A stretch of DNA of 63,471 nucleotides, counting the filler, from Octopus bimaculoides (taxonomy: Eukaryota), in the NCBI RefSeq assembly GCF_001194135.2. It is 4 parts of 4 records of this genome, joined end to end, with 100 filler letters (N's around TTAATTAATTAA, not from the genome) between each part and the next. Parts side by side here need not be neighbours in the genome. Positions count along the whole stretch, not along the records: positions 1 to 19,788 come from NC_068988.1; positions 19,889 to 34,199 come from NC_068986.1; positions 34,300 to 60,869 come from NC_068985.1; positions 60,970 to 63,471 come from NC_068996.1. One strand, written 5' to 3'. The notes under the pieces were generated by a model, which saw only the letters and a list, made by a program, of their open reading frames with translations, was not told the origin of the DNA and searched no databases. Positions 16,619 through 63,366 of this stretch are shown one piece after another. Numbering within the stretch: position 1 is the first letter of the stretch; the number at the start of each line of letters is the position of its first letter. The translations under genes and the position numbers were made by a program.

Positions 16619-16651
16619 AAGTTCTTCCGTCCCCATTCGAGACCTCATCAG
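16619..16651 (-). ncRNA. Degenerate hammerhead-like motif
   Basis: CTGATGA G GTCTC GAATG GGGAC GGAA GAACTT; GAAA box mutated; stem I not formed. Confidence 0.4.
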
Positions 16652-16696
16652 CGAGGGTCGGAACCTGAAACAGACCTGGTGCAGAGAGGACACATC

Positions 16697-16730
16697 CTTG
16701 ACGAGGTCGCAAATGGCGACGAACGATTAG
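16697..16730 (+). ncRNA. Degenerate hammerhead-like motif
   Basis: CTTGACGA G GTCGC AAATG GCGAC GAAC; perfect 5-bp stem II, imperfect core. Confidence 0.35.
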
Positions 16731-17141
16731 CCCCTTGGTTAACCAATTGACAAACAAATAAATAATAGAGTCAAATAGAACCAGTGCATGTGTTCATTGT
16801 TGGCTTAATGACCCTCTCAAGTTGCAACAAAATCTGTTATTGTTGTTATTCTTATTGTTGCTGAACTCGTCTGTCAGATTCGATTAAGCAAACAAGATGA
16901 AAAACAATCCAGCCATGACAGAAGTGTTTAGATCTCTGTTTAGTTTTCTGACAGAAGGGTTGCACGGGTAGATCTGGTCTTCATAATATATATATATNNN
17001 NNNNNNNNNNNNNNNNNNNNNNNNNNNNNNNNNNNNNNNNNNNNNNNNNNNNNNNNNNNNNNNNNNNNNNNNNNNNNNNNNNNNNNNNNNNNNNNNNNNN
17101 NNNNNNNNNNNNNNNNNNNNNNNNNNNNNNNNNNNNNNNNN

Positions 17142-17183
<42 letters not shown>

Positions 17184-17229
17184 CATTTACTCTACACTCC
17201 GTCATACAGTGAACAATCGTTTGCAGAGC

Positions 17230-17910
17230 AGGGTGACAGTCAAGACATACATTTCTCTCTGTCCATTGTCCAAGTCTTTTTTTGTTCTATTCGAGTGGTA
17301 GCCAGATGAGTGTGGTAGAGTTGGTCTGATACTGTTCCCAAAGACCCAACAATAATTGGCGCTTCACCTTTTTCATTTTCCATAGACGGGCAATTTCGTA
17401 CTCAAGAGGGTTCTATCTATCTATCTATCTATCTATCTTTTCGCTATCCTTCTTGGCTATTCATGGGTCAAAGGGACATGCAACATCAACTATACAACAT
17501 ATGTGGTGCACCTTGTCCATTACCCCCACTATGTCCGGTCTGTTATGCTCTAGCAACTGATCTGTTTGGGTTGGGAAATCTCAGAGGATTTAGCTAGTCT
17601 CCGACAATGCCACTCTCTGCGGTTTGTACTCATACCACGTCTTGCCCCTCTCTAGCCCCCACTTTTCGCACAGTTTCCAATGGAGCAGTTTCGCTATCTG
17701 GTCGTGTTGCCACGACTTGTAGTTTCGGGCAGGTCTACGGCATTCGTTCGTGATATCGGTGATGGTTTCATCCATCCTATTGCAGATGCGGCACAACGGA
17801 GATACTTGCTCATTCCTCAGGCTGACCCTCCAGTTCGTGGCCAAGGCCTGGTCTTGCAATGCCAGTATACTGCTCTCGGTCTCTCTTTTTGGTGTTTGAT
17901 CCCAGCGTGT
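17230..17910 (-). mobile_element. R4/Dong-like non-LTR retrotransposon 3' fragment (zinc knuckle + restriction-like endonuclease)
   Basis: KRETESSILALQDQALATNW, CRICNRMDETITDITNEC, HDQIAKLLHWKLCEKWG, RPDIVGVMDKVHHICCIVDVACPFD (PD..D motif), YEIARLW and IVGSLGTV. Confidence 0.85.
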
Positions 17911-19211
17911 AACGTCCTTACCAAGTGTCTTTTACCAAAATTTAGAGATAATTAAAACTTTGTGTGAAAAATTCACATGACACAAAACGTGGGTACTTGT
18001 CGGGTGGATTGTACCTCTAAATGAAAGGTTCGGCTTTGTCACATACCGTGTTATGCTAAATGTCGTTAGGGTTTATGCTAAGGGATGTATGTGTCTGCGG
18101 AATACTCAACTACTTACATGCTAACTCGGTTAATCGAACTATCGAATTCTCATCGTCGAAACCGACGAAGAACCATTTCGTTATTGTTGCAATTAATCCT
18201 TTTGAGAGACTTTTGGTTCTGTGGTGGTTGTGGTTTGATCACAATAAACCTATAACCAAACACTTCCAGCCATGGCCATCTCGTATCAAGTTTAATTCAC
18301 GAATGTGGACTTCATTTGTAACGGAGAGAGAGGGAGAGAGAGATAAAGAGAGAGAGAAAAAAGAAAGAAAGTGAGATTATTTTTACAAGATGGACTGGGA
18401 ACACAGAGGCTCTCCAGTTTGTTATTGTAGTTATTGTTGGTGGTGGTGGTCGTGCTACTAATAGTGGTATTGTTGTTTTTTTGTTTTGTTGATGTTATTG
18501 CTGTTGTTGGCACTAAAGACTTGTTTGTTTTTTGTTGTCGTTGTTGTTGTTGTTGTTGTTGAGGGTAGTGGTGGGTTTCTTCTTGACACTATTGTTGTTT
18601 CTGCTGTTCATTTCAGTGGCGATGGTGGCAGCAGCAGCAGCCGTGATGGTGCCAGTGGATGGTGGTGGTGGTGGTGGTGGTGAACGTGGTGGTGNNNNNN
18701 NNNNNNNNNNNNNNNNNNNNNNNNNNNNNNNNNNNNNNNNNNNNNNNNNNNNNNNNNNNNNNNNNNNNNNNNNNNNNNNNNNNNNNNNNNNNNNNNNNNN
18801 NNNNNNNNNNNNNNNNNNNNNNNNNNNNNGTGTTGTGGTGGTGGTGGTGGTATTGACCGTTGTCATCTTGGCGGCGGTGATAGCGGCGAGCGAGCGAGCG
18901 AGGGAGGGTTTCGGGCTGCTCTGACACCTCTCTTCTCACTAATATCAGATTATAACAATTTCTTTTGCTAACTGATGCTTTTGTTACGAATTAGCATTTC
19001 TTCTTCTTCTTTTTTTTTTATTACCATTACCGTTGTTGTTGTTGATGTTGTTGTGGCAGTTGTTGATCTTCTTGTTGCTGCCGTTGTCTACTTATAAGAT
19101 ATTGTTTTTAAACAGTCCACAGTTTTACAAAAGAGCAGGGGACGTGCTTTGCCGTATAATACAAATTATGAAATTAGACAAAACATGCGCGCGCGCGCAC
19201 ATACACACAGA

Positions 19212-19260
<49 letters not shown>

Positions 19261-19788
19261 ACAGAGACACACACACACACAGACACACATACACACAGAG
19301 ACACACACACACACACACAGAGACATGCGCGCGAAAAAGGAAGGAATTTAAAGAAACATCAAAACACAACCACTATAACAACAACAACGATGATGATAAG
19401 GAGGAGGAGGAGGAGGATGACGCTAATGGTGATGATGATGATGATGATGATGATGGTGGTGAGGAGGAGGAAGAGCGGGGCGGGAAGGAGGGGTAGGAGG
19501 AGGGATAACCACAGATGTTATCGTTTTAATTTGATGTCTGTAAGTTGCAAATGGTCAACGAGCTTTTCTTTCTGATTTCTCTTTTCATTCTTTTCTCTTT
19601 TCTTATTTTGTATGTGTGTGTGTGTGTTTATGTGTGTGTGTTTATGTGTGTGTGTGTGTTTATGTACTGTGCTTGTATATATTCATAATCTATCTCTTCT
19701 TTGTCTCTCTCTATATATATACATATCTACGCACGCACACACACACACACACACACACACAGTCACACACACACACACACACACACAC

Positions 19789-19888
19789 NNNNNNNNNNNN
19801 NNNNNNNNNNNNNNNNNNNNNNNNNNNNNNNNTTAATTAATTAANNNNNNNNNNNNNNNNNNNNNNNNNNNNNNNNNNNNNNNNNNNN
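19789..19888. other. 100-bp assembly spacer N44-TTAATTAATTAA-N44
   Basis: Identical construct at 34200-34299 and 60870-60969; the 12-mer gives stops in all six frames. Confidence 0.9.
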
Positions 19889-19907: not shown

Positions 19908-19963
19908 ATTTCACTGATGAAGGCAGAGCATTTATGCAAAGCCAGAAATCCAGGATTTGAAAT
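19908..19963 (+). ncRNA. Minimal type-I hammerhead ribozyme candidate, complete
   Basis: Stem I ATTTCA(19908-13)/TGAAAT(19958-63); CTGATGA; stem II GGC/GCC with inner GCAT-TT-ATGC hairpin; GAAA; stem III ATCC-A-GGAT; predicted AUU cleavage after 19957. Confidence 0.75.
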
Positions 19964-20856: not shown

Positions 20857-21014
20857 GAGTTGGTGTGTGGTAAGAAGCATGCTTTCCAACCACATGGTTC
20901 CGGGTTCAGTCCCACTGCGTGGCACAGTGTGCTAGTGCCTTCTACTATAGACCCGAGCCGACCAAAGCCTTGTAAGTGGATAGGTTAGACGGAAACTGAA
21001 AGAAGCTTGTGGAA
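20857..21014 (+). mobile_element. Octopus tRNA-derived SINE head, truncated at (TA)n
   Basis: TGTGTGGTAAGAAGCATGCTTTCCAACCACATGGTTCCGGGTTCAGTCCCACTGCGTGGCAC...GGAAACTGAAAGAAGC. Confidence 0.85.
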
Positions 21015-21919: not shown

Positions 21920-22085
21920 GCCGGGGTTCATCCTGTTTCCACCTACCAAATCCACTTAAAAGGCTTTGGTCGGCATGAGGCTATATGGTAGAAGACACTT
22001 GCCCAAGATGCAATGCGGTCGTACTGAACCCGGAACCATGTGGTTGGGAAGCAAGCTTCTTAACACACCGCCACACATGCGTCTA
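21919..22085 (-). mobile_element. Same SINE head in opposite orientation
   Basis: Reverse complement of the 20857 head (GAACCCGGAACCATGTGGTTGGGAAGCAAGCTTCTT on plus). Confidence 0.85.
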
Positions 22086-22860: not shown

Positions 22861-23245
22861 GTTGTTGTTGGCACTCCGTCGCTTACGACGTCGAGGGTTC
22901 CAGTTGATCCGATCAACGGAACAGCCTGCTCGTGAAATTAACGTGCAAGTGGCTGAGCACTCCACAGACACGTGTACCCTTAACGTAGTTCTAGGGGATA
23001 TTCAGCGTGACACAGTGTGACAAGGCTGACCTTTTGAATTACAGGTACAACAGAAACAGGAAGAAAGAGTGAGAGAAAGTTGTAGTGAAAGAGTACAGCA
23101 GGGTTCGCCACCACCCCCTGCCGGAGCCTCGTGGAGCTTTAGGTGTTTTCGCTCAATAAACACTCACAACGCCCGGTCTGGGAATCGAAATCGCGATCCT
23201 ATGAACACGAGTCTGCTGCCCTAACCACTGGGCCATTGCGCCTCT
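22861..23245 (-). mobile_element. Full-length tRNA-derived SINE with (AAC)n tail
   Basis: Minus GGCGCAATGGCCCAGTGGTTAGGGCAGC (A box) ... GATTTCGATTCCCAGACC (B-box-like); ends in CAACAACAAC. Confidence 0.85.
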
Positions 23246-31605: not shown

Positions 31606-31699
31606 GACGTTTCGTAGCATACGCTATATATCAGTTAATCAGTGAAGGGATCGTTTAGGCACTGCAGTGTTTCGACCTTCTTTTGTGTCTCCTCAGTGG
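31606..31699 (-). ncRNA. Tandem pair of degenerate hammerhead-like motifs
   Basis: CTGAGGA GAC..GTC GAAA CACTGCAGTG (palindromic stem III) followed by CTGATAT A TAGC-GTAT-GCTA C GAAACGTC; stem I pairings are poor. Confidence 0.5.
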
Positions 31700-34299: not shown

Positions 34300-34312
34300 A
34301 TATATATACATA

Positions 34313-34598: not shown

Positions 34599-34649
34599 GG
34601 CGCAGGAGGTGGTCAAACTCTGTTTAAGGAGTAGACAACCACCATATAT

Positions 34650-35070
34650 ATGGACAATAGTTGATGTATATTAGCTGCAGTGAGTCCAAAGCAGAGAATG
34701 TTGGACACTACTCTGCAGTCAGTCAATAGGCTGACTGCAGTGTGTGATGGCACTGTTGTGTACATTGAGACTACGTCAAGACTGAAGGCATATCTGTTTT
34801 GCTTGAGTTGGTCTGGGGGCAGTTGGTGCAGTATTTTGATGACTTCGTTGGAGTTCTTGACGTGTCGAGGAAAATGGAGCATATGGGTTTCAGGATGTGA
34901 GAAAGTAGCCAGGATATTTTATATAGAGGTCCTTCACGCTGGAGATGATGGATCTAATCTGGATCGTGTTGCTATCCTTCTGTGTTTTATTGAGATAGAA
35001 CCTGGGTGATTTACTGTTCTCTGTGATGAAGTTATTCTTGTATTTGCTATGTAGTTGTCTCCATCTACAA
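34650..35070 (-). mobile_element. Penelope-like element, inverted 5' RT segment
   Basis: SPRFY..KTQK..IRSIISS and HVKNSNEVIK..FSLDVVSMYTTVP (PLE RT motifs) on minus strand, ending TAANIHQLLSI. Confidence 0.9.
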
Positions 35071-35075: not shown

Positions 35076-36510
35076 ACCGCTGCTAATATACATTAACTAT
35101 TGTCCATCATCATGGATGACACCTACTTCTCTTTCCATGATCACATATACAAACAGACAACAGTCTCCCCATAGGATCCAGTGTCTCTAGCCTACTAGCC
35201 ATCACCTATATGAACCATCTGGAATGTCGAGCACTCAACATCTGCCGCTCATGCGCCTTCTTCACCAGGTACGTAGATGACATCCTCATACTCACATCCT
35301 CCCATGAAGAGGCTGACAGAATATTCACAACATTCAATAACATGGACATGAACATACAGTTCACTATAGAACATCCCGAAAACACTGGACACTATCATTA
35401 CTTGACTTCCAACTGAAAATAACGGAAGAAGGAGAGATCCACACCGAGTTCTACAGGAAAGCAGCCAGCAGAGATATGTTTGTCCAGTACAGTTCAGCCC
35501 TTCCACTCGGTGCCAAAATAGGATATGCCAGAAATGGACTTGCATGCATCCAGAGTAAGTGCAACAAGACAGAGGACAATGTAACCCACACTACACGCTT
35601 CCTAGAGATATTGAAAACCAACGGGTACCCTATATCCATTGTAAATCGGCTTAAGCAACCAAAACGAGAGATATGCCGAACACAAAAGAAATCCCGCAAC
35701 ACATGCTTCCTTAAAATACCCCATTTTAGCAAGAGGATAAGTACAGCCATCTGAAGAGCCATAAGAAGAGAAAGACTAGACATACAATTAGCCCACTCCG
35801 GCCCCTCTCTGAAGAGACACCTAGCAAAGAAATGAGTAAGAGACAGCAATCAATGTACATTAACAAACTGCCTCATCCGTGACACAGATTTATGCCAACG
35901 GATAAATATTGTGTATAGAATACAATGTAACAAATGCAACAAGTTCACAACAAGACCGTTACACATTCGCATCAAAGAACATCTGAACACAAAAGCCTCC
36001 TCCTTCAGAAAACTTCTAGACAAATGCCGGAACACCAACAAAAGCATAACAGTCACAATTGAGGCCAATGAAAGAAATTTGGGTAATCTAAGAATTAAGG
36101 AAGCTATCCTTATACACAGACTAGGGCCCCAAATTAACAACAAGCTGGAGGTTGGCAGTCAATATATTATTTAGCTACATCTGGATGTGCATAGGTTCAC
36201 TTTTGATAACATGCTCATGTGTTGTTTATAAAATAAAAGAAAGAAGAAAGAACAGAAGAAATAAGGGAACTGCACGTATAATACATAACTTAGAAGCAGT
36301 GCTACGGATGTGCCAGCACACACGAGCTTGAGACATGGCCACTCTCATGCACTTCTCATGAGGAATTCCGGAAGGAGTTTTGTTAGACCACTGCAGAGAT
36401 AGTTCCAGGAAAAAAAAAAACTGTTGGAAAACCAATTATAGCAGTGACTCGATCAATTCCTAGGGATCTCTGAAGAAGGAATTTTTGTATTCTGAAATAT
36501 TATATCAGAC
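35076..36510 (+). mobile_element. Penelope-like element 3' part: RT (YVDD), thumb, GIY-YIG-like endonuclease and 3' UTR
   Basis: LLSIIMDDTYFSF..YKQT..PIGS, TRYVDDIL, EFYRK, LKTNGYP, NIVYRIQCNKC, RIKEH, RIKEAILI..GPQINNK; a few stops and frameshifts. Confidence 0.92.
36467..36509 (+). ncRNA. Minimal hammerhead candidate at PLE 3' end
   Basis: TCT CTGAAGA A GGAAT-TTTTGT-ATTCT GAAA; stem III ATAT-T-ATAT; AUC triplet (C36506); only 3-bp stem I TCT/AGA. Confidence 0.6.
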
Positions 36511-45899: not shown

Positions 45900-48541
45900 C
45901 TGTACAACCTCCAGTCGTACAGTGCCAGATAGAACCATACTATTGACAACTTCAGAATATAATAATATCTGTCTGAGCAACAACGATACAACAGTGGCAA
46001 AAGACTGCTTTACAAGCACCATTGTTCCCACCATGACCACCACCACATGGCCACCATTCTTGAATCAGTGATAGGTTGTGCAGATCTGTAATATATCAAC
46101 CTCCCACTGTACCATTTCAATCTCATTTTTAAAATAGTTGTTCAGATTGATGAGATACCAGACATTCAACTAATAACTCAGGAGTTTCAATCATACATCT
46201 GACACTATATTTCACCCATAGTCAGCAGTCAATAAAGGAAGTGATGCAATTCAGTACAAAATGAATTCAAATCCTCTTGAGATGAAACATCTACCCAGGA
46301 ACAGTTTTACATTGTGGAAGCCAGAAATAAACATCAATTTATGGAATTGTATGGTATGGACAAAGATCGACTTCCTCTTCTAATTTTTTATTGTATGATT
46401 CTTGATAACTAGTCCCAGTTCAACAATTATCATCAACCACATTTCTAAGAAGCAATCTGTCTTCTCACGAACCCAAACTATTGCAATTATTTTATTTTTT
46501 TCCACTATTACTCAATGTTTCAGAAAATAAATGATAAAATAAAAATCGTTTAGCCTTGAATAAATGTTAAGAATGTGAAACTAAAAGAAGTGAAAATAGA
46601 GGTGGAGTCTAAATAAACATAATTGCCATCACCACCACCATCACTGCTATGACTGTCATAACAGAGGGAGGGGTATCACCACAACCACCATCATTTCAAC
46701 AGCTATCACCACCCCTAACATTACCCCCAATCCCCACCACAACTACCATTATCATCACCACAGCCAATATATTACTCTCATTACCACCATCACCACTAGA
46801 ACTAAATATCACCACCACCATTACCACAACCACTATTACCATTACCATCACTACCACTAACCTCACCAACAACACCATGTTCAGACAGGTCTCTATGACA
46901 ACAGTGACTGTACAAGTATACAATACATCAATGTTTCAGCATTTCATATATTTCAGAAAAATAATAATGCCAATTTTGAACTAAATTCTACCATTAGACA
47001 TACTGGAATACATGAACTTTAGTGCAAGGCAAGCTGTTCTAACACTTATTGATCTCATCAACCTGATTCTTACATTAAAGAATCTACAACTAACCCAGCA
47101 CACTTATTACAGGTCGATTTGATGGGGAGATTATGTCTCTTTAATTCAGGGTTCACCTCTTTAAAGCCAATAAAATAAGTTCTGGAGTTGATGTAATCCA
47201 CTCTACATTAATCCACTCTACAACAAAAAAAAAACAAACCGAGAAACGAGACATGCAACATAAAGAATATTACCCTTCTTCAGTTGTCCCTGTTCCATCT
47301 ACTCCGCGTTTCAAAGGCAAGGACAATACGCAACTTCGTTGGAGCAGTCCTTCCCGCAAGCAAATTAATTAATATTTGGAAATTTGTGTGGAGGGTGAAA
47401 GTGTAAACAAGAACAGGACAGTGAGAACAAAACAGTAAAAACAAGACAGAACAGTGAGAACAAACGGTAAGGGCTGTTAGGCCAAGACAATAGAAAAATT
47501 ATTCTGAACGCTAGTTAGATGTGAAGGAGAGACAAAAAAATCACGTCTTCTCTAGAGGAAGGCAAGAAATCGAACGAAAGAATCCCTTTCATCACGCGTC
47601 NNNNNNNNNNNNNNNNNNNNNNNNNNNNNNNNNNNNNNNNNNNNNNNNNNNNNNNNNNNNNNNNNNNNNNNNNNNNNNNNNNNNNNNNNNNNNNNNNNNN
47701 NNNNNNNNNNNNNNNNNNNNNNNNNNNNNNNNNNNNNNNNNNNNNNNNNNNNNNNNNNNNNNNNNNNNNNNNNNNNNNNNNNNNNNNNNNNNNNNNNNNN
47801 NNNNNNNNNNNNNNNNNNNNNNNNNNNNNNNNNNNNNNNNNNNNNNNNNNNNNNNNNNNNNNNNNNNNNNNNNNNNNNNNNNNNNNNNNNNNNNNNNNNN
47901 NNNNNNNNNNNNNNNNNNNNNNNNNNNNNNNNNNNNNNNNNNNNNNNNNNNNNNNNNNNNNNNNNNNNNNNNNNNNNNNNNNNNNNNNNNNNNNNNNNNN
48001 NNNNNNNNNNNNNNNNNNNNNNNNNNNNNNNNNNNNNNNNNNNNNNNNNNNNNNNNNNNNNNNNNNNNNNNNNNNNNNNNNNNNNNNNNNNNNNNNNNNN
48101 NNNNNNNNNNNNNNNNNNNNNNNNNNNNNNNNNNNNNNNNNNNNNNNNNNNNNNNNNNNNNNNNNNNNNNNNNNNNNNNNNNNNNNNNNNNNNNNNNNNN
48201 NNNNNNNNNNNNNNNNNNNNNNNNNNNNNNNNNNNNNNNNNNNNNNNNNNNNNNNNNNNNNNNNNNNNNNNNNNNNNNNNNNNNNNNNNNNNNNNNNNNN
48301 NNNNNNNNNNNNNNNNNNNNNNNNNNNNNNNNNNNNNNNNNNNNNNNNNNNNNNNNNNNNNNNNNNNNNNNNNNNNNNNNNNNNNNNNNNNNNNNNNNNN
48401 NNNNNNNNNNNNNNNNNNNATATATATATATATATATATACAGGATATACTTTTCGTATTGAGATAATACAATATCCCTACATTCACTCTCTATTTCCTA
48501 TCTTAACTAAACTAATTATTGCTTAATCATCCTCTCACACC

Positions 48542-48589
48542 GTCTCCGATGAAGAGATATAATAAATATCCTGGAAACAGCTGTAAGAC
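48542..48589 (+). ncRNA. Minimal hammerhead candidate with core U4->C change
   Basis: Stem I GTCT/AGAC; CCGATGA; stem II GATAT-AATAA-ATATC; GAAA; palindromic stem III ACAGCTGT; GUA triplet (A48585). Confidence 0.72.
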
Positions 48590-48805
48590 ATTAGATTTAT
48601 AAATGTTCTATTTTATACACAGCCTTGGTTTTTTTTTTATCTCATTACGAAAAGTATATCCTATATTCACACTCTGATATATGACCTACGTTGGACCCCT
48701 TATTCGATAACCTCCGAACCCGGAGCTTAACGGTGGTCTATCCATAGCACTTACTCAGCATTACCTGAAACCTCTGGGTCTAATTGACACCACTGTCGCT
48801 CATAA

Positions 48806-48849
<44 letters not shown>

Positions 48850-49070
48850 CATACATACATACATACATATATATTTTAATTTATGTATATATTAATATTA
48901 TCTTGGTTGAAAAACTCCGATAATGCAAATATGTAAATAGTTACCTGGGTAGCAAAAATCACACAAAAACTGGGATATTATACCTGGTTAAGGGGTAGAA
49001 ATTCCATGTTAAAGTGATGTATTTTGAGTTGATATAAAGAATAATAATAAATGGAGCAAAACGCATATAA

Positions 49071-51017
49071 CCAATAAGCTCCTTTAATTCCTACACATGT
49101 TTCAAAAATTATATGCACTCTACTCCAAAGAAGTAAGAGATGCTGGTATATACATATAATTTCATCATCAGGGAACCATATTTCAAATGCAAGACTTGTG
49201 CTGAATGCTAACGTTACATACGAGGAATAACACTATAAGTTAAATGGCCGTTAGAAACAAGAACGCTAGTTTACAGGGAGCTGTTTAGGGAGAGAGGCTA
49301 TGAATGCTATACTAAGAGTTTAAATTAAAGGATCACATGATGAACCACAGAAAATTCTTAAAGTTAATAATAATGGTAGTAAAAATTTATTGTAATTTTA
49401 AGGAGAAAGGGAGAGAATCCAATGAATTCTTTATATACGACTAATTATGTAAATAAATGTTTATAAGGAAGGAAAATTAAAGATAGATTGTAAATATAAT
49501 TAACCATTAATGTTGTATCATATTAAGTTACGATAAATAACCTAAATAAATGGCAATACAAGGTACAAAACTATAAAGTAATGAAATAATAAGAATAAAC
49601 ATGCTTACGATAACAAAATCAATAGTATATACGTAAATATACTTAAAATTCTACAAATATAACTTTACGGGGTTTAAACTTGCTGTACTAACTAGAGAAG
49701 GAGAGAGAGTGTGAACAACTGGCATTGGAGTTAGATTTAATTGTTATTTTAGATAATATTGTAATGTAATTATTCTCATTGTTGTTATTATTATTATAAA
49801 TGTAAAAATTAATTTATTATTATTACTATTATTGTTATTGTCTAAAGTTTAATAAAAATAAATACAAAGTGGGGTGATAGTTCATACCACATGTAAAGTG
49901 GCTGTTAACTAGTGAGTATGAAAAAAAAAAAACTAAAATTAGTAAAAAGGATGAAATTAATGAAACGAGCTGAAGGTGTGGTTCCTCCAATGCTGGCATC
50001 TGTATGCTCTCAGTGTTATCTGGTTCATTAAATTATTCTTGGAGAACAGAATGTGGAATAGCTCCAAGTTACAGAGAGGACAAAAATCTTTACCCTTGTC
50101 GTAGAGTATTGAGGTAGCCAGTATTGACCATTCCAAAGAAAATTGTTTATTGCAGTCCTTAAGTTTCCAGATTAACTTACTAAGACCCGGTACTATTATT
50201 TTTATTCCTATCCCTAAAAGTTGAGTAATGGTTAGAGATTCTCCTAAAGACCTGTGACGAAGAGCAACCTATGTAATGCGAGACCTCTGTGTTAGTCGTT
50301 AATTTACATTGATAAACCACATTTTTGGTCCTAGCATTCACACTCAAAAACTTGATTCTATTACAATTAGATTCCGAGATACTAATCTTATTGTTGTGAG
50401 AGTTATTGTTATATTTACTAATGTTGTACTTATTACCTATATCTTTATTTAAATAACTATGGCTACCATAGGAGTGTGTTGTATTACTGGAGTAATTGTT
50501 ATTATTATTATTATTATCATTACTATTATTATCATCATAATTGGTATGGCTGTCTAGAACTGAATCTAAAAGTCTAAAATTATGGGAAGAAATTATTTGT
50601 AACATATTTTTTGTATTAGAAAACCCAAATCTAACCTTATGTGTGTTGATGATTGGGTAATAGTGAGAACCCCTAGGAAAGTTCCTATTCACCGCATTGC
50701 GGAACTGCAAAACCAAATTGGATTTAACTTGTTTCCCAAATGGGACGATGAACCAGATGTTGTCATCATACCTAGGTGGTGTGTTGGTATTGCTAAATAA
50801 ATTAAGTTTTTTGTTTAGAGCCAGTTAAGCCTCCTCTTTTATGTGAACGATTATAAGTAAGTGCCTTTTCTCAGTTAAGTGAGAAGAAGGGGAAGAAATA
50901 GAATTGAGTTTATCCCTGCTAGTAGTGCTAGTATTCTGTTGTACAAAAGATGAAAAATCACTAAATGAGTTGATGTATCTTAACTTGTCTTTGTAACCTG
51001 CCTTCAATAAGGCTGAA
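49071..51017 (-). mobile_element. 5'-truncated Penelope-like element (RT C-terminus, Asn-rich linker, GIY-YIG, 3' UTR with hammerhead)
   Basis: YNSALLKAGYKDKLRYI; NVVYQCKLTTNTEVSHYIGCSSSQVFRRISNHYSTF; LSKLIWKLKD..LEWSILA..CNLE. Confidence 0.85.
49086..49177 (-). ncRNA. Type-I hammerhead candidate, intact core with extended stem II
   Basis: Stem I GGTTCC/GGAATT; CTGATGA; 10-bp stem AAATTATATG/CATATAATTT with inner hairpin; GAAA; stem III ACA-TG-TGT; GUA triplet (49092). Confidence 0.75.
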
Positions 51018-51156
51018 TTATATGCGTTTTGCTCCATTTATTATTATTCTATATATATATATAGTTGGAATTTACAAAAAAGCAAAACAAAAGACAAAGA
51101 CGGGTGTGTAAACAACAAACAGGTGTATTAGTTTAATGCTCAGGAAGTGAGAAAGT

Positions 51157-51192
51157 ATTTTATGTTTTGAGCCTATGCTCTTTCACAGAAAG
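51157..51192 (-). ncRNA. CpG-decayed hammerhead remnant in PLE-type tail
   Basis: CTTT CTGTGAA A GAGC-ATAG-GCTC AAAACAT; stem II intact, both core boxes mutated. Confidence 0.45.
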
Positions 51193-51218
51193 GAACACAG
51201 AAATAAGCAGAGTGAAAG

Positions 51219-51273
<55 letters not shown>

Positions 51274-53169
51274 CGTGCGTGTGTGTGTAAATTTAAATAG
51301 GCAGAAAATGGTGAAAACTTTTGATCAACAAACAAACAAATTGACAAACATCGGTTAATTACTTTTTAATACAAAACATAACATAACATTTCTTACGGCT
51401 ACTTCGGCTGCCAATGTTAATCAAGTGCTTACAAAGAAAACTCCAAAAATAATATTCACCATCTTTATAGCACATTCAGTCTAGTACATGGAGCTTCATC
51501 AGAGTGAATACAAATACATAAAATAAAATAAATGAAGGGAAGAGGAAAGAACAGGGCTTCAAGAAGAGGCCAGAAGGTTCAATATATTAGATTCATAGTA
51601 TTTTGCAGTGTGAAGCTTGAAGTCGATAGGCAAAAGAGTGAACTAGCAAATGAGCTAGAGAAATAATTTATGGGTTATCTCTTTATGTAGGGGTACCAGG
51701 GTGTAGTAGGATAAAACTAGTGCTAAAGTAAAACAGGAAATGCCAATATGTCTAGAAAAAGAATAGTACTTCTGATTTCATAAATAGAGCAAATTAATAA
51801 TTATCCAAAACCAAACCCGTAAAGTTTTTATAATGGTGTACTAACTGAAATATTCTAGAGACCTGTTGTCTGTAATGGAATTGACCAAAGTCCAGTCATC
51901 TCTACAATTGGTCAGTTATATTTAAACCAAGAGCAGATGTAAATAAATAAGAAAACGAACCAGTAAATAAAAAGGTATGGTGGGAGAAGACTATGTCATA
52001 AGTGGCACAAAGGTGCTTATGCCCTTCCACACCATCTCAACATAAAATAAAATAAAAAATGAAAATAAGATAAGTACTAGCAACCAATATGGCTATAAAC
52101 TCTTTTACAGTTAAGGGGAGGCTACTGATAGGGAGGTGAACACTAGTGGAAAATACCTTCAAAAATAATGCTAAATCTAATATCTTAAATAGCCAGCATA
52201 CTTTCAAGTGGTGGTAATACTAGATGAACAAGTAAATGTCTACACGTTCCTGAGTGCATCCTGTCACTTAGACATGCGAGAGGGCAAAAGTACAAAAACT
52301 CCAAACAGTTAAGCGATTACAAGCTAAATCACTTGATAATTACTAACATGGTTACAAACTCCTACTACATTTTACTAAATCTTACTTAATATATATTATA
52401 TTATATTATAATTAAAATTAGATTGTTCATATTACTAAACTTATTGCTATATTAACCTTTACATGGGTGTAGCCATACTGGGTCTACCACAAAATTTCAC
52501 TTCCATTCATACACAATAAGCCTAAAGGTAACAATATCTCGTGGGAAATTATCTACTACAGTGCCCAAATACAGACCTATACCATCTCGAGACGGGATCA
52601 ATTAATATTAAGTTACTAAATTTAAGTTATGTTCTACAGTGGGTTTGTATTGTTCCTAAGCAGGTAGGACTAATAGGGTCCACTATAAGTGGAGGTAGAC
52701 CAGTATGCTGGTTGAAAAGATTACGTTCAGATTGAAACTAGTACAAACAAGCTCACCCATGGTATAAAAGGTACAGAAAAGTAAAATTAGTTGCCAGGGG
52801 ATTTTAACATTGGGGTTTAAGTACCAATGCCCTCTTTATTCAAAATTAGGTTCATGATTGAGAGAGCAAGCATTTGGTAAAGGGAGTGAGTAGGTGATAT
52901 TAAGGAGAAATTGCTTAATAAGTATATAAAGTAGCTAGTTGTTATGGGTGGGGTGGGATTTAAACTTGGATATGTTGATGAAGGGATAGGGGTATTGTTG
53001 TTGGAACACCCACAAGTGACTCAGGTATGTAATACTATTAAACTAGCTTTAATTTAGGAGTTTATATATGCCTTCATTTAATATCAACGGCTACTATTTC
53101 TGTGATGAAGGGCTCTTGGTGCTATTTCTGGGGGCAGTGCAAGGGTTTCTAATGTTATTTATATTTAGT

Positions 53170-54470
53170 GATGGTAAACCTCCCCTTGTGCAGACAGGCT
53201 ATGTTTCTCTCTTCCCTCAAGTAATGGGTGTTGTGCTGCTAGTATGAAAAAATTTCATTGATGCAAAGATAGCATTTCCTGTTTTTTGCATCGTACAGAA
53301 GTATGGAGGCGAGGATTTTCCATTCTAATGCGAAACTAGTATCTGCATCTTTGAGTTCCCAAATTATTTACTTAATCCGGTCAAGTTAATCCTATTTCTA
53401 TTGCTGAAAGAGTATTGATGTGTGGCTAGTCTACATTTCATATCATTTTGGATAACTCCTATGTATATCCTTTCACTAAACTGTTGTGACTGTGCACTGA
53501 TAAATTACATCCTTATTTTTACAGGTATTTCCAAGGGCACAATTATCTTTATCTCTATAGTACATATAGATAGTACATATAGATAGGGGAATTATTTTCT
53601 GGTGGATTAGCGCTAGATTAATAGGGTTATTATGGTTCTGAGTGTTCTCTTTACTAAAATTGGAGTGGTTATGGGGTTTATTGTTTATATTCTTACTATT
53701 ACAGCTGTCGTTGTTATTGTAGTTTCTACTTAAATAGAAAGTGTCTAGTTTTTTATTACTCATGGAGGAAATGATGCTGGCTAAGGTTATGCGTGAGACT
53801 ATCTTTATAACTCTACTATTAATAAGTTTTGAATACCTGCTATTCTTATGAAAGTGTTTATTTATAATGTTAAATATTAGCTTAGCTAAGTCGGTCCTTA
53901 TTTGCATCACATATGGGAGTATGAGCCAGTTAAAGTCTCTCAATTTACTAGTAATCTTGCTGAACATCCTATGTTTATAGCTGTTAGAGTGTTGCATCTG
54001 GTGTATATGTTTATTATCATTAGTTTTATTATCTAGGCTATGAGTATTAATGGTGCTAGGAATCGGTTTCTGCAGGTAATATTTTGAGTTATTACTGTGG
54101 TCTTCGTGATTAGGGGGTTTATTGGCATCATTTATCCCTTGTCTAGTTCCCCTCACTATTCTACCTGTTGTATTTGTGTTATCATTGTAGTTGTTCTTAG
54201 TATTGCTAATTCTGATCCTGTTAGTGTCATGAGCTATAGTTGTCTCTGCTTTATTACTTAGTTTAGATGTATTTTTATGTTCTGTATAATTAAAGTTAAT
54301 GTTATCAATATTATTTCTGTTTGTTGCATTCGCGTGTGGGATATACTTAATTCTACCTCTATAGCCTGCATCTTTAAGTGCCTTATTGTAATTATCTTTA
54401 TGACTATTAAATAAGTCCTCATTAGAAGAGCGATGTGCTTCCATACCCATGCTCAGGGATAACATAGCTG
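53170..54470 (-). mobile_element. Second Penelope-like element (RT C-terminus, Asn-rich linker, GIY-YIG)
   Basis: SSNEDLFNSHKDNYNKALKDAGY; WLILPY; CALGNTCKNKDVIYQCTVTT then IYIG..RLATHQYSF..TGLSK..WELKD..LEWKILA..CYLC after a frameshift. Confidence 0.85.
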
Positions 54471-54542
54471 AAATGATACCAGTAATAAGAAAAAATATTC
54501 TTATCCCTTAGGCAGTTATTCCAGCCACTAACTCTGCTTATA

Positions 54543-54578
<36 letters not shown>

Positions 54579-55622
54579 GAAATATATATGGGAGAATATA
54601 CAAATAATAACAACAGACGAGGACAGGTGGTGTAAATAACAAAAGGATATATTAGTATGACGCTCGGGAATGCGGAAAGTCTTTGACATATATATATATA
54701 TATATATATATATANNNNNNNNNNNNNNNNNNNNNNNNNNNNNNNNNNNNNNNNNNNNNNNNNNNNNNNNNNNNNNNNNNNNNNNNNNNNNNNNNNNNNN
54801 NNNNNNNNNNNNNNNNNNNNNNNNNNNNNNNNNNNNNNNNNNNNNNNNNNNNNNNNNNNNNNNNNNNNNNNNNNNNNNNNNNNNNNNNNNNNNNNNNNNN
54901 NNNNNNNNNNNNNNNNNNNNNNNNNNNNNNNNNNNNNNNNNNNNNNNNNNNNNNNNNNNNNNNNNNNNNNNNNNNNNNNNNNNNNNNNNNNNNNNNNNNN
55001 NNNNNNNNNNNNNNNNNNNNNNNNNNNNNNNNNNNNNNNNNNNNNNNNNNNNNNNNNNNNNNNNNNNNNNNNNNNNNNNNNNNNNNNNNNNNNNNNNNNN
55101 NNNNNNNNNNNNNNNNNNNNNNNNNNNNNNNNNNNNNNNNNNNNNNNNNNNNNNNNNNNNNNNNNNNNNNNNNNNNNNNNNNNNNNNNNNNNNNNNNNNN
55201 NNNNNNNNNNNNNNNNNNNNNNNNNNNNNNNNNNNNNNNNNNNNNNNNNNNNNNNNNNNNNNNNNNNNNNNNNNNNNNNNNNNNNNNNNNNNNNNNNNNN
55301 NNNNNNNNNNNNNNNNNNNNNNNNNNNNNNNNNNNNNNNNNNNNNNNNNNNNNNNNNNNNNNNNNNNNNNNNNNNNNNNNNNNNNNNNNNNNNNNNNNNN
55401 NNNNNNNNNNNNNNNNNNNNNNNNNNNNNNNNNNNNNNNNNNNNNNNNNNNNNNNNNNNNNNNNNNNNNNNNNNNNNNNNNTATATATATATATATACAT
55501 ATGTTGTTGTACTTGGGGATGGTCATATTGCCAGTTAAGCCAATAAAAACACACGCACTGTATATTTGGTGTTAATTTGCTTCAGCTTTATATTACATTA
55601 TATTACATTAATCCTATTTCGG

Positions 55623-55662
55623 CCAGAGTTCTTTCGTCACTCTTCTGTGACCTCATCAGTGG
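55623..55662 (-). ncRNA. Minimal hammerhead candidate, intact core
   Basis: CCA CTGATGA G GTCAC-AGAAGA-GTGAC GAAA G-AA-C TC TGG; CUC triplet (55626); 3-bp stem I. Confidence 0.68.
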
Positions 55663-56906: not shown

Positions 56907-57317
56907 TATGCTTTCAGTGCAAATGGTTTTTGTTATACGACACCGTATTTTACAATCCTGTAAATAATAATAACGGTATCTTTATATAAGCTTAAAATTT
57001 ATGGCATTCACCGTGCAATGACTAAGGAAAATAGTCTAATAAGGGGGCATATAAGCACTTAACAGAAAAAAAAGAAGGCTTTCCCATCCGTGTGTGAAGG
57101 TAACACAATCATGTTAACAAAGGGATGTGGGTTCACGTCCCACGTGGATGGGAAAGCCTTTTCTTTTCTGTCGAGGGCTTATATGCCTCATTATTAGATT
57201 ATTTTCCTTAGTCATTGCATGGTGACCAGCATAAGCTTTAAGCTTATATAAAAATACCATTATTATTTACAGGTTGTAAAATACAGCACCGTATAATAAA
57301 GCCATTCACACCAAAAG

Positions 57318-57321
<4 letters not shown>
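56907..57321. mobile_element. 415-bp foldback / MITE-like element with about 185-bp imperfect inverted arms
   Basis: 56907-57094 is the reverse complement of 57141-57321 (TATGCTTT...AAAGCATA termini); 46-nt spacer; flanked by TA-rich microsatellites. Confidence 0.9.
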
Positions 57322-57379: not shown

Positions 57380-57398
57380 TATATATATATATATACTT

Positions 57399-57705
57399 AT
57401 TATAGCCTCAGGCCGACCAAAACCTTGTGAGTGGATTTCTTACTCGGAAACTGAAAGAAGACTTTCGTATATATGTGTATATTTGTGTATGTGTGTGCCT
57501 GTGTCTTGTGTTTGTACCCCCACCATTGCTTGACAACTGATGTTGTTGTGTTTACATTCCTGTAACTTAATGATTTGGTAAAAGGCACTGATAGAATGAG
57601 TACTAAGCTTACAAAGAATAAATCCTGTGGTTGATTTCTTCGACCAACGGTGGTGCTCCAACATGGCTGCAGTCACACGACTGAAACAAGTAAAGCAATA
57701 AAAAT
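57399..57705 (+). mobile_element. 5'-truncated octopus SINE (body and tail), CpG-decayed
   Basis: TATAGCCTCAGGCCGACCAAA...GGAAACTGAAAGAAG...GCTTGACAACT...GGTGCTCCAACATGGCTGCAGTC...AAACAAGTAAA. Confidence 0.85.
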
Positions 57706-57983: not shown

Positions 57984-58877
57984 TTTCTATTGACCAATGT
58001 TGGTTGTTGTTGCCGGAGTTTCTTATGCATTTCATCCATTTGCTGACAGTGCTTCTCTACTGTAATGGTTTCGCCTGGATCCAAAAAGCTGTGATGGATG
58101 AGACCGGTCGCAGACCACCAAACAGTCACCATGACTTTCTTCTGGTGCAACTTTGGTTTCAGGAAGTGCCATGGAGCTTCGTTGGCATCTAACCACTGAG
58201 CTGAGCGTCACCGGTTGTCATAAAGAATCCACCTTTCATCGCAAGTCACAATCCAGTCAAGAAACAGGTCGTTCTTGTTGCATAAAAGAAGGGAAGACAA
58301 CACTTCAAAACAGTGTTTTCTTTTGGTTGTCGCTCAATTCATGTGGCACCCATTTCTCAAGCATTTTTGTTTTTCCAATTTCTTTCAAGTGGTTGGAAAC
58401 TGTCGTATACATTATGTCTAATTCAGAAGCAAGCTTTCGAACAGTTGTGCATGGATTGGTTTCAACTAAGGCTCTTAGTTGATCGTTGTCAACATCTGAT
58501 GGCTGACCACTACGCTTATCAGCTTCAAGACTCTCGTCACCGCTATGAAATTTCTTGAACCATCATTGTGCTGTACATTCATTAGTGGTTCCTGGGCCAA
58601 ACGCATCATTGATATCGCGAGGTGTTTCAGCAGCTTTTCAGCTTAGCTTGAACTGGAATAAGAAAATTGTGCAAATTTGCTTTTTGTCCATGTTGTATTC
58701 AACGTTCCAGAAAAAAATGGCCTAACTATTCAAAAAGAAAAAGAGGAACATGATTAGATAGAGCAAAAAATGGGCTTTAAAATGATATATAAAGTCAAAG
58801 TAATTTAATGAAAATTTGAAAATACATCATTTAAAACCAAAATTAAAAATTCCGCAAGAACTTTCTTGTCAACCTAA
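57984..58877 (-). mobile_element. Hsmar1-like (cecropia subfamily) mariner, decayed; 3' part lost in gap
   Basis: TA + TTAGGTTGACAAGAAAGTTCTTGCGG TIR; MDKKQICTIFLFQFK..DAFGPGT..WVPHELS; HQKKVMVTVWWSATGLIHHSFLDPGETIT. Confidence 0.92.
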
Positions 58878-60969: not shown

Positions 60970-60991
60970 GCGTATATGATCATGCACTTAC

Positions 60992-61258
60992 TGATATTTT
61001 AAATACTTTGTTTGGAAAAACGGATGGCAAGGGGTGATCTTTCGGTAGTCCATTAAAATTGACGAAATGCTGGGAACACATTTGGCTATTTGCAGTGTAA
61101 ACAAAGTCTTTCCTCACAAGTCTCGATCTCTGAAGCCAAATACGACGAATAGCTACGTTTGCAGGATATCTATGTAGCGAAATAACTTTGCCGAACCGGT
61201 CAGTGCAGTATGTGAGTCGTCTGCGGAAGTTAAAGCAAGTCACTGAGCATGCGTACAT
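60992..61258 (-). CDS. THAP zinc-finger domain exon (89 codons, ends at a GTAAGT donor)
   Basis: MYACSVTC...LHRYP...RIWL...CSQHF...PLPSVFP: C4-x3-C8-x52-C61-x2-H64 plus conserved P32, W41, F65, P78; no stops; TCA|GTAAGT donor. Confidence 0.8.
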
Positions 61259-61311
61259 GTCATACGGGAGAGTTCCAATCAAGGGTGGATAACAACCTTA
61301 TAGGAACCCCC

Positions 61312-61470
61312 TATACAGGCGTGGCTGCGTGGTAAGAAGCTTACTTCTCAAACAAAGGGTTCAGGATTCAGCCCCACTGCGTGGCACCTTGGGCAGGTAT
61401 TTTCTACTATAGCCTCAGGCCGACCAAATCCATGTGAGTGCATTGGTAGATAGAAACTAAAAAAAAAAGC
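61312..61470 (+). mobile_element. Octopus SINE head
   Basis: CAGGCGTGGCTGCGTGGTAAGAAGCTTAC...CCACTGCGTGGCACCTTGGGCAGG. Confidence 0.85.
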
Positions 61471-61570
61471 GCGTGCGAGCGTATGTGTGTGTGTGTATGT
61501 GCGTGCGTGAATAAAGTAAATGTATGATACTATGTTATATTTAACTGTTTTGAATAATAACGACAATCAA

Positions 61571-61765
61571 GGTGGCGACCCGGCAGAATAGTTAGCACGC
61601 CTAGCAAAATACTTATTGGCATTTCATCCGTCTTTACGTCCTGAGTTCAAATTTTGCTTAGGTCAACTTTGCCTTTTATCCCTTTCAGGGTCGATAAAAT
61701 AACTACTGGATTGATGTAATCGACTCATCTCCTCACCCGAAATTTCTGGCCTTGTGACAAAATTT
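61571..61765 (+). mobile_element. Nin/Deu-core SINE
   Basis: GGCAGAATAGTTAGCACGCC...GAGTTCAAAT...GGTCAACTTTGCCTTTTATCCTTTCAGGGTCGATAAAAT. Confidence 0.8.
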
Positions 61766-61792
61766 TAAAGCAATAAATTAAGAAGTTTGAAG

Positions 61793-61975
61793 ACGGTGAG
61801 GTGGCAGACTTGTTAGCACGCCGAGCAAAATGCTTTGCGGCATTTCGTCCGTTTTGATTTCAAATTTCACCAAGATCGACTTTGTCTTTTATCTTTTCGA
61901 AGTCAATAAAATAAGTACCGTCGATGTAATCGACTTACCCCCCCCCCCCTTGCCGATATTCCTGGCCTTTTTTGT
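61793..61975 (+). mobile_element. Second tandem Nin/Deu-core SINE
   Basis: CGGTGAGGTGGCAGACTTGTTAGCACGCC...GATCGACTTTGTCTTTTATCTTTTCGAAGTCAATAAAATAAGTACC. Confidence 0.75.
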
Positions 61976-62339
61976 TAGCAAAATACAAGAGAAAGCGGAC
62001 ATCTATGTACCAATAATAAAGAGTTTGTAAATTCATTACCTAAGATACACTTTCAGCTTCATACCTACTTTACAGGAGAAAAAGGATACATACCAACCCG
62101 TCTGGAGCAAAGTGTGACTGAATGTGGGATCTTGTGGAGAGAATGCACATTCTTAATTCATATGCAACAAATGATCAGTGTATCTTGGACAATAAAAATC
62201 TGCAAGACCTTAAGATTTGAAGGATAATGAAGAAGACAAAATGATTTCTTTCAAAACCTTGCTACCAGGTAAGCAGACGGTGAAAATTTACTCTAAATTA
62301 AAAAAAAAAGAGAACACACAGATCCTAGACATCAAAGGG

Positions 62340-62720
62340 AACCTGTCGACGGATTCCCCGACGCTTGAGGTTGTGGCTCACATGTAGATACGCAACCACA
62401 TCATTCTAGTGCAACAACGACGTCCCAGCTGGTTGGAACATGCACACATCATGTCAGGTGCAAAGATTCCAAAAGACCTGCTTTGCCGTGAAATGGTTCC
62501 AGTAAGAGAGTTCAAGGGCAACACCATTTCCGTTTCAAGCATGTCTGCAAGATATACATGAGTTCTATTGACAGAAAACGTTGAAAGATGAGAAAGCTTT
62601 CTTGATGAACGCTCCCGCTGGAGACTAGAATAAGTCACAGAGTTCAAATGATGAGAGTAAATAAAGTTTGCTGACGAAGGGAAGCAATTTCGACGTGGAG
62701 AAAGCAACATGATGAATTAG
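62340..62720 (+). mobile_element. Decayed RTE LINE 3' coding fragment
   Basis: IPTLEV..QQRRPSWLEHAHIMSGAKIPKDLL...FRFKHVCK...ERSRWR. Confidence 0.7.
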
Positions 62721-62787
62721 CAGTGAGCAAAAGCGGCTGCAGCACAAACATGCTACGATGGCCCTAAACGTAAAATAGCAGCAACAA

Positions 62788-63030
62788 ATGGCAAACAAAT
62801 GCCTTTATGGAAACCTGCCGAAAGTTAGCGAGATCAGGCAAAGACGGCTGCGACTATCTGGTCACTGTGTGCGCTACCGTGAACTGAAAGTATCCGACTT
62901 AGTCTTGTGGAATTCACTTTATGGTGATGTAAGAAGAGGAAAACTTCGTCACACTAACATCGACAACTTGATTGCAGACATTGGCCTGGGGGTGTATCCA
63001 CGACCTCGAGAGAGTGATGATGGACCTAGA
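62788..63030 (+). mobile_element. RTE-like LINE 3' coding fragment of a second family
   Basis: NKCLYGNLPKVSEIRQRRLRLSGHCVRYRELKVSDLVLW...RRGKLRHTNIDNLIADIGL. Confidence 0.75.
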
Positions 63031-63315
63031 TGTGAGGCAGGTGAACCTGGGTTGGAACCAAGCAGACAGTGGCTGGAAAAGCAGTCTCTGCGCCTGGAGT
63101 GGCTCTCACATATACGTCTGTATGACCAGAGCAGATGCTGCTATACCATTGAGAAGGAAGCAAGTCGTTCAAGTCGTAGATTCGTGGGGGGGCGTGTGTG
63201 TATGCATATATGTATGTATGTATAAGAACTCGCCAAAAACTATACATATATGTACATATACATATATATACCCGCATACACACCCACACACACACGCACT
63301 CCAACAACCTCGCAC

Positions 63316-63366
63316 CTGAAGAGATGTTGGCGTGGGTTCCCACTCCGGCATCCGAAACTCGGAGTT
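63316..63366 (+). ncRNA. Hammerhead-like motif with long stem II; stem I absent
   Basis: CTGAAGA GATGTTGG-(C GTGG GTTC CCAC T)-CCGGCATC C GAAA; stem III ACTC-G-GAGT. Confidence 0.55.

What the first reader, a model, noticed from the sequence alone, without database searches (positions are those of the whole stretch)
16619..63366. Dispersed, sequence-diverse set of minimal hammerhead ribozyme motifs (about ten in 63 kb)
Seen: CUGANGA-stem II-GAAA-short stem III-NUH motifs at 19908(+), 36467(+), 48542(+), 49086(-), 55623(-) and 63316(+), with decayed ones at 16619(-), 16697(+), 31606-31699(-, two) and 51157(-). Their helices differ in sequence while the core is kept, and stem III is mostly self-complementary (ATCC-A-GGAT, ACAGCTGT, ATAT-T-ATAT, ACTC-G-GAGT, CACTGCAGTG). 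Most have an extra or non-Watson-Crick nucleotide between A9 and stem II (A.A, A.G, U.U, extra G). Established: Penelope-like elements and retrozymes carry minimal type-I hammerheads with palindromic stem III that cleave as dimers. Inference: octopus hosts many independent PLE/retrozyme lineages with a variant stem II junction; I do not know of a catalogue of them.
Basis: partly seen in the sequence, partly recalled or inferred. Interest (0 to 1): 0.85.

Follow-up and report, generated by a model that had tools for sequence, protein, structure and literature searches.

The report
Octopus Penelope-element hammerhead ribozyme relics
The scattered hammerhead-ribozyme motifs in this octopus-type DNA are real and lie in what are likely the tail ends of mostly broken Penelope-like jumping genes; this pairing, including the odd stem junctions, is already published, and cutting by these copies is untested.

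Summary
Of 11 flagged motifs, 4 are complete type-I hammerheads (19908+, 36467+, 49086-, 55623-). Two are one step off (48542+ has U4C; 63316+ lacks stem I). Four are relics with independent support, and one (31606-) is weak. Exact core plus stem II plus self-complementary stem III occurs 6 times against a shuffle mean of 0.36 (0 of 500 shuffles reach it). Three broken Penelope-like ORFs lie in the window; two have a complete motif 0.3-0.8 kb downstream on the same strand. Inverted tail arms and (TA)n neighbours fit Penelope-like insertions. The claimed novelty mostly falls away. The extra base after A9 is a published consensus feature. U.U at 10.1/11.1 occurs in 14 of 25 tabulated Hydra-clade hammerheads, and that table already has an Octopus bimaculoides element. 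What remains: A.A and A.G junctions absent from that table, a long stem II shared by a related copy, one very abundant short family, and high density. One RNA run showed no pile-up of ends at the cut site tested. No genome was held, so there is no genome-wide count.

The parts
16619..16651 (-). Decayed type-I hammerhead (A13G, no stem I), extra G after A9; arm 1 of an inverted duplication
   Evidence: arms align, score 88 vs shuffle max 54.5; core and stem II resemble 55659
16698..16728 (+). Decayed hammerhead (U at position 3, GAAA altered); arm 2 of the inverted duplication
19908..19963 (+). Complete type-I hammerhead: 6-bp stem I, A.A junction then 3-bp stem II, 4-bp stem III with 1-nt loop; (TA)n 158 nt downstream
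31606..31634 (-). Possible relic of a minimal hammerhead, three core changes; weak
   Evidence: sequence only; not found by any descriptor
31658..31696 (-). Relic: exact core, G10.1-C11.1, 10-nt palindromic stem III, U16.1 changed, stem I lost
34649..34765 (-). Inverted 5' fragment of PLE-A reverse transcriptase
   Evidence: tblastn E 3e-12
35076..36229 (+). PLE-A: broken 5'-truncated RT + C-terminal GIY-YIG ORF of canonical type (two cysteines in the GIY-YIG core); clade not determined
   Evidence: Pfam RVT_1 E 1e-8; 79-84% to O. bimaculoides proteins; relative P0003 has RVT_1 + GIY-YIG, both below Pfam's curated cut-offs
36467..36509 (+). Complete but weak hammerhead (3-bp stem I, extra A, AU-only stem III), about 0.3 kb downstream of PLE-A on the same strand
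48438..48467 (.). Inverted copy of the tail at 48637-48666, marking the 5' end of a short insertion lying between (TA)n tracts
   Evidence: (score 50; 1% of 300 random sites reach 40)
48542..48589 (+). Near-complete hammerhead: U4C, A.G junction, 8-nt palindromic stem III, 4-bp stem I
   Evidence: missed by the descriptors
49085..49178 (-). Best motif: exact core, 7-pair stem I, U.U junction, long stem II with internal loop (-15.8 kcal/mol), predicted cut after 49092
   Evidence: a gap-free related contig spans 49057-49237
49966..50758 (-). PLE-B: broken 5'-truncated ORF end with Hydra-clade-type GIY-YIG endonuclease, about 0.8 kb upstream of the 49171 motif
   Evidence: (150 of 150 search hits map back; they were found with this stretch)
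51018..51056 (.). Inverted copy of the tail 49032-49070 at the 5' truncation of PLE-B
51064..51221 (-). Short copy of a very abundant repeat carrying a decayed minimal hammerhead (51157-51192), between (TG)n and (TA)n
   Evidence: highest depth; relatives' loose ends restore G12, the C-G of stem III and the outer pair of stem I
53080..54507 (-). PLE-C: second Hydra-type broken ORF; no hammerhead found in the 1.9 kb downstream
   Evidence: (140 of the 153 proteins hit, best E 3e-13)
54594..54687 (-). Second copy (73% identical) of the abundant family's tail, starting 3 nt before its predicted cut site, next to (TA)n
55623..55662 (-). Complete minimal hammerhead: extra G, 5-bp stem II, 2-bp stem III; (TA)n 129 nt downstream
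63316..63366 (+). Exact core, long stem II (-17.6 kcal/mol), stem III identical to two published Hydra-clade motifs; no stem I

Best explanation
The motifs are type-I hammerhead folds that likely come from the 3' pseudo-LTR tails of several Penelope-like retrotransposon families (Hydra-clade-type and canonical), left as mostly 5'-truncated copies that are probably dead. Shown: the folds, three broken PLE ORFs, inverted tail arms, (TA)n neighbours, and multi-copy status of the one element tested. Inferred from the literature: in an active element's RNA the ribozyme would cut the tandem precursor after NUH, either as a dimer pairing through the self-complementary stem III or with help from the element's own protein. 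Reverse transcription would start in the tail about 50-250 nt further 3', so even the shortest copies keep the hammerhead. That 3' bias would explain lone motifs without ORFs. Many families plus neutral decay would explain different helices around one core.
For: Enrichment over shuffles. Complete motifs 0.3 kb and 0.8 kb downstream of PLE-A and PLE-B on the same strand. Overlapping related contigs tile from the 49171 motif towards the PLE-B ORF, with a dropout at a low-complexity stretch, 49758-49835. Inverted arms at 48542, 49086 and the 16.6-kb pair, a described PLE layout (PMC8557442 section 6; opposite-strand pairs in PMC4209133). (TA)5+ within 300 nt downstream for 6 of 10 motifs vs 9.7% of random sites, p about 1e-4; Hydra elements target (TA)n. 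No stem III is a stable hairpin alone (0 to -0.8 kcal/mol), while 5 of 7 form homoduplexes of -6 to -18.5. The fourth stem II pair reads U-G, G-C, A-U across three similar copies. Summed depth is higher at the 3' end than in the ORF.
Against: Only 2 of 11 motifs have an ORF remnant within 1 kb upstream; the rest are assigned by shape and flanks. PLE-C has no motif downstream. The link between 36467 and PLE-A rests on position only. Two stem III segments (36470, 55659) give no stable homoduplex. Inverted arms were absent at 5 of the 9 motifs scanned (score 29 or less); the score at 55659 came from a microsatellite, and 16651 scored 34 until aligned in full. In RNA run X21 the only pile-up of ends was at 48947, none at the predicted cut 49092/49091. 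The two nearby motifs 16651/16698 lie on opposite strands, so they cannot dimerise in one transcript.
Confidence: 0.85

Rival explanations
1. Some lone motifs, above all the very abundant 51064-51221 family, are non-autonomous, retrozyme-like or SINE-like elements that amplify as short units using PLE proteins, possibly through circular RNA.
For: Summed depth at 51084-51215 is about 9-10e5 in DNA run X1 against 1e3-1.1e4 in most bins over the PLE-B ORF. Two short copies lie in the window, one starting 3 nt before its cut site. Animal retrozymes are described as PLE derivatives (10.64898/2026.07.22.740005).
Against: No motif lies in a tandem array, the defining retrozyme layout. Extreme 5' truncation of an autonomous family predicts the same depth profile. 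The laid stretch ended at 51215, so the family's upstream extent is unknown.
Confidence: 0.25
2. The copies are active and kept by the host, cutting nascent transcripts and affecting gene expression.
For: Four motifs have an intact core; related copies appear in RNA reads (2704 laid of 12.9 million read).
Against: 7 of 11 carry core or stem damage. Only 7 of 2704 laid RNA reads are 99%+ alike, 2066 are under 90%, and 0.91 of what was laid runs on into unlike sequence, which fits other copies read passively inside other RNAs. No end pile-up at the cut site. Published minimal PLE hammerheads are inactive as monomers and weak as dimers, and one needs the element's protein.
Confidence: 0.07
3. The motifs are chance matches in AT-rich repetitive DNA.
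For: Bare CTGANGA is not enriched; loose descriptors return several chance-like hits; Rfam finds no hammerhead. Plausible for 31606.
Against: 0 of 500 shuffles reach any level of the stepwise test; ORF, inversion and copy-number evidence is independent of the descriptor.
Confidence: 0.02

Closest known systems
Hammerheads of Hydra-clade Penelope-like elements, including Hydra-1_Obim of Octopus bimaculoides (Craig et al. 2021, PMC8557442, Files S1/S2)
   Same: Type-I fold near the 3' end; 3-4-pair self-complementary stem III with a short loop; U or A often at position 17; U.U at 10.1/11.1 in 14 of 25 families; (TA)n targets; CxxC and CxH motifs in the endonuclease (PLE-B, PLE-C). The stem III of 63316 equals that of Hydra-2_aMil and Penelope-16_HM.
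   Different: None of the window motifs is the Hydra-1_Obim motif (compared by eye). A.A and A.G junctions are not among the 25 Hydra rows. The 61-nt stem II arm of 49171 is longer than any Hydra row.
Minimal hammerheads (min-HHR) of metazoan PLE pseudo-LTRs (Cervera and De la Pena 2014, PMC4209133)
   Same: Extra nucleotide between 9 and 10.1, G10.1-C11.1, palindromic or absent stem III, extreme heterogeneity within a genome, mostly single motifs, opposite-strand pairs. Best fits 36467, 55623, 16619/16698 and 51157.
   Different: No cephalopod among the rows of Table S1 and Fig. S3 that I saw. Counts given there are 2,000-9,000 per genome; this window suggests more, though it was picked for being rich.
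Non-LTR retrozymes (PMC7229834; 10.64898/2026.07.22.740005)
   Same: Type-I hammerheads in small non-coding repeats; present in molluscs (mussel, about 5,000 copies).
   Different: Defined by tandem units of a few hundred bases and abundant circular RNA; the window's motifs are single or inverted.

Membership tests
Type-I hammerhead ribozyme | Core CUGANGA...GAAA...UH with three helices | tested here: met
   4 of 11 complete; 2 more one step off
Type-I hammerhead ribozyme | Self-cleavage after NUH | not testable with these tools
   Needs an in vitro assay; one RNA run showed no end pile-up at the one site tested, which ordinary RNA-seq may not show
Rfam hammerhead families | Match to a curated covariance model | tested here: not met
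   No hammerhead family among 118 matches at E<=10
PLE-associated hammerhead | Located 3' of a PLE RT/GIY-YIG ORF on the same strand | tested here: met
   36467 and 49086 only; the other 9 have no ORF remnant within 1 kb upstream
PLE-associated hammerhead | 5' truncation with inverted copy of the tail | tested here: met
   48542, 49086, the 16.6-kb pair, and the inverted RT fragment of PLE-A
PLE-associated hammerhead | Direct pseudo-LTR repeats flanking a full ORF | tested here: not met
   No such pair in the self-comparison; expected for truncated copies
PLE-associated hammerhead | Self-complementary stem III allowing dimers | tested here: met
   5 of 7 segments form stable homoduplexes, none a stable hairpin
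Hydra clade (PLE-B, PLE-C) | C-terminal endonuclease without CCHH, with CxxC and CxH around the conserved E and N | tested here: met
   Read from translations against PMC8557442 section 11
Hydra clade (PLE-B, PLE-C) | CxCX5C linker | tested here: inconclusive
   Decayed in the window; clear in homologues P0053, P0084, P0120
Hydra clade (PLE-B, PLE-C) | RWK and DKT motifs; RT phylogeny | not testable with these tools
   No RT core was found in either remnant
Hydra clade (PLE-B, PLE-C) | Insertion into (TA)n | tested here: met
   (TA)n at 48808-48843, 51050-51063, 54563-54578, 54689-54714
Non-LTR retrozyme | Tandem units each with a hammerhead | tested here: not met
   None of 81 tandem-repeat rows holds a motif
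Non-LTR retrozyme | Abundant circular RNA | not testable with these tools
   No suitable data

The most novel reading that the evidence does not exclude
Octopus carries on the order of 100,000 hammerhead motifs. Among them are Hydra-type families in which a purine-purine mismatch at 10.1/11.1 and a long, internally looped stem II are working family features, and a very abundant short non-autonomous element. Its copies inside host transcripts pair up through stem III and cut octopus RNAs in vivo.
Probability: 0.1. Interest if true: 0.6.

Novelty: new member of a known kind. Interest (0 to 1): 0.22.

Why it matters
As it stands this adds octopus families to a known pairing of Penelope-like elements and hammerheads, and it shows that Rfam misses them all. 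What the ribozyme does for these elements is still open: in the one reconstituted system it was protein-assisted and not needed for insertion in vitro (PMC11167929). An octopus catalogue would offer many natural variants to test, such as A.A and A.G junctions and long stem II arms. It would matter more if such copies were shown to cut host RNA, which nothing here indicates.

Tried and rejected
No whole genome is held, so there is no genome-wide count or family alignment. Rfam: no hammerhead match. The repeat finder was swamped by N runs; BLAST self-comparison was used instead. Protein searches with the PLE-C ORF and with a translation of the abundant repeat found nothing, so that family's core bases 3-9 remain unread. 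A 23-base motif scan of metagenome contigs gave L001 and L002, which share only the motif and have no hammerhead core: chance. Run search: no RNA holder listed. Earlier findings for this genome and for the repeat sequence: none. Candidates rejected as chance-like: 9164+, 40963-, 31531-, 11582+ (long loose arms), and 13629-, 6507-, 43313+ (no stem III or UH). A possible relic near 36354+ could not be parsed. The idea that copies lacking stem I end exactly at the cut site (16619, 31658, 63316) stays unproven: at 16619 homology to the other arm continues past the site. Lunse, Weinberg and Breaker (PMC5785218) is not held; I saw only its title in a reference list. Its tables may already cover octopus or these junctions. 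I built no covariance model, because pairing among motifs chosen for pairing would be circular.
Full report
Setting. The window has 58,331 called bases and 20 gaps, and it is rich in microsatellites. No genome is held. A reverse-transcriptase fragment at 35141-35413 matches three Octopus bimaculoides proteins at 79-84% identity, so the octopus attribution is reasonable.

Observation. Four are complete: 19908-19963(+), 36467-36509(+), 49085-49178(-) and 55623-55662(-). 48542-48589(+) has U4C and a broken stem II, and my descriptors missed it. 63316-63366(+) lacks stem I. The others are relics; 31606(-) is weak. A strict descriptor gave 3 hits against a shuffle mean of 0.06 (0 of 100). With one core mismatch allowed, the same descriptor was not clearly above chance (3 vs 1.37; 3 of 30). 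An energy-scored descriptor gave 6 hits at score 12 or more against 0.61 (0 of 100); one of the six, 9164+, looks like chance. In a stepwise test on 500 shuffles, core plus stem II was 9 vs 2.05, adding stem III 6 vs 0.36, adding UH 4 vs 0.07, and adding stem I 3 vs 0.006; no shuffle reached any observed value. The bare core word is not enriched (29 vs 24.1). The descriptors were written after seeing the motifs. Rfam returned no hammerhead among 118 matches.

Context: ORFs. Three broken Penelope-like ORFs lie in the window. I scanned 150 of 208 stop-free frames against Pfam and mapped 153 retrieved proteins back by tblastn. [quoted passage not shown] PLE-B (49966-50758,-) and PLE-C (53080-54507,-) have endonucleases with the CxxC and CxH motifs given for the Hydra clade; no RT core was found in either. 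The 36467 motif lies about 0.3 kb downstream of PLE-A and the 49086 motif about 0.8 kb downstream of PLE-B, each on the same strand. PLE-C has none in the next 1.9 kb.

Context: flanks. Short inverted copies of the tail sit upstream of 48542 and 49086 (scores 50 and 73; 1% of 300 random sites reach 40). Five of the 9 motifs scanned had no such arm, and one high score came from a microsatellite. The 16619/16698 motifs are the two arms of a roughly 190-base inverted duplication (score 88, shuffle maximum 54.5). Six of 10 motifs have (TA)5+ within 300 bases downstream, against 9.7% of random sites. No motif lies in a tandem array.

Reads on 48900-51215 (four runs, 80% likeness). The whole of PLE-B is multi-copy in both non-RNA runs, which carry two organism labels. 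Summed depth in X1 is about 1.1-1.8e5 over 48978-49133, 1.7e4 over 49134-49211, about 1e3-1.1e4 in most ORF bins, and 9-10e5 over 51084-51215; listed single contigs have depths of 48-159. The tool warns that this is no copy number. Read loosely, it suggests on the order of 10,000 copies for the last family (inference). A gap-free contig spans 49057-49237, so the long stem II is shared by at least one other copy. Joints to the inverted arm start at 49063-49099, near the predicted cut at 49092; this is suggestive only. Of 601 variant rows 40 were shown, so conservation of U.U across copies could not be read. In RNA run X21, 2704 of 12.9 million reads were laid: 7 at 99% or more, 2066 under 90%, in both mate directions about equally. 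The only pile-up of ends was at 48947.

Mechanism. Shown: the folds, their enrichment, the PLE remnants, the inversions and the copy abundance. Computed: none of 7 stem III segments is a stable hairpin, and 5 of 7 form stable homoduplexes. Inferred: in active elements the ribozyme would trim tandem precursor RNA as a dimer or with protein help, and 3'-primed, early-terminating reverse transcription would scatter hammerhead-bearing tails. Cervera and De la Pena found a minimal motif inactive as a monomer and weak as a dimer. Frangieh et al. found a lizard element's hammerhead protein-assisted, not needed for insertion in vitro, and with no RNA-seq ends at the cut site. Most copies here are probably silent.

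Comparison with the literature. PMC4209133 (main text parts 1-2 of 4; supplement parts 1-2 of 3) lists the extra base after position 9, palindromic stem III, extreme heterogeneity, lone motifs and opposite-strand pairs as general features. PMC8557442 (passages, sections 6 and 11, supplement searches and part 2 of 59) tabulates hammerheads of 25 Hydra families, one duplicate row counted once. Fourteen have U.U at 10.1/11.1 and one has U.C; none has A.A or A.G; one is Hydra-1_Obim from O. bimaculoides. PMC3088659 (passages) reports natural U10.1.U11.1. Passages only: PMC11167929, PMC6765202, PMC7229834 (mussel about 5,000 copies; axolotl up to 120,000), PMC13282606 (PLE expansion in O. vulgaris; no ribozyme mention), PMC6962438 (235 Rfam hammerheads in giant squid) and PMC8967140. 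Preprint 10.64898/2026.07.22.740005: parts 1-2 of 5; its supplements were not seen. PMC5785218: title only. The listings showed no genome-wide octopus catalogue, but the library lacks most subscription papers.

Density. Four complete motifs in 58 kb is one per 15 kb. Scaled to an octopus genome of about 2.7 Gb (size recalled), that would be on the order of 100,000. This is likely too high, because the window was flagged for being rich. Unchecked notes from this scan report similar loads in other animal genomes.

Verdict. A real feature, correctly linked to Penelope-like elements, and a new set of members of a known kind. The retrozyme label fails its defining test, and the junction variants are largely published. 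Interest 0.22.

Noticed in passing
window 51064-51221 and 54594-54687: Two copies of a very abundant short repeat with a minimal hammerhead; highest depth in all four runs; one copy starts 3 nt before the predicted cut site.
   Followed up: partly
window 49056-49211: Summed depth falls about tenfold inside the stem II arm of the 49171 motif, and 41 RNA reads switch strand between 49066 and 49146: many related copies may begin or invert there.
   Followed up: no
window 56910-57318: About 400-base imperfect palindrome, 79% self-complementary; possibly a foldback element.
   Followed up: no
window 38035-38736: Identical 346-base stretch repeated across a 10-base gap; probably an assembly artefact.
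   Followed up: no
window 57986-58562(-): Mariner/Tc1 transposase remnant (Transposase_1, E 2e-26).
   Followed up: no
window 60983-61297(-): THAP domain (E 7e-6).
   Followed up: no
window 34301-34558(+): Single C2H2 zinc finger (E 3e-6) just upstream of PLE-A.
   Followed up: no
window 17593-17931(-): Weak zf-RVT match (E 0.001), probably a LINE remnant.
   Followed up: no
window about 43200-45900(+): Broken reading frames that look by eye like a Gypsy-type gag/protease/integrase remnant; not tested.
   Followed up: no
window 20864-21004, 21927-22074, 57398-57460, 61321-61465; 5454-5546, 61582-61969; 5735-5906, 22875-23044: Three further dispersed repeat families at 72-83% identity.
   Followed up: no
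window 36354-36400(+): Possible heavily decayed hammerhead about 0.2 kb after the PLE-A ORF; could not be parsed.
   Followed up: partly
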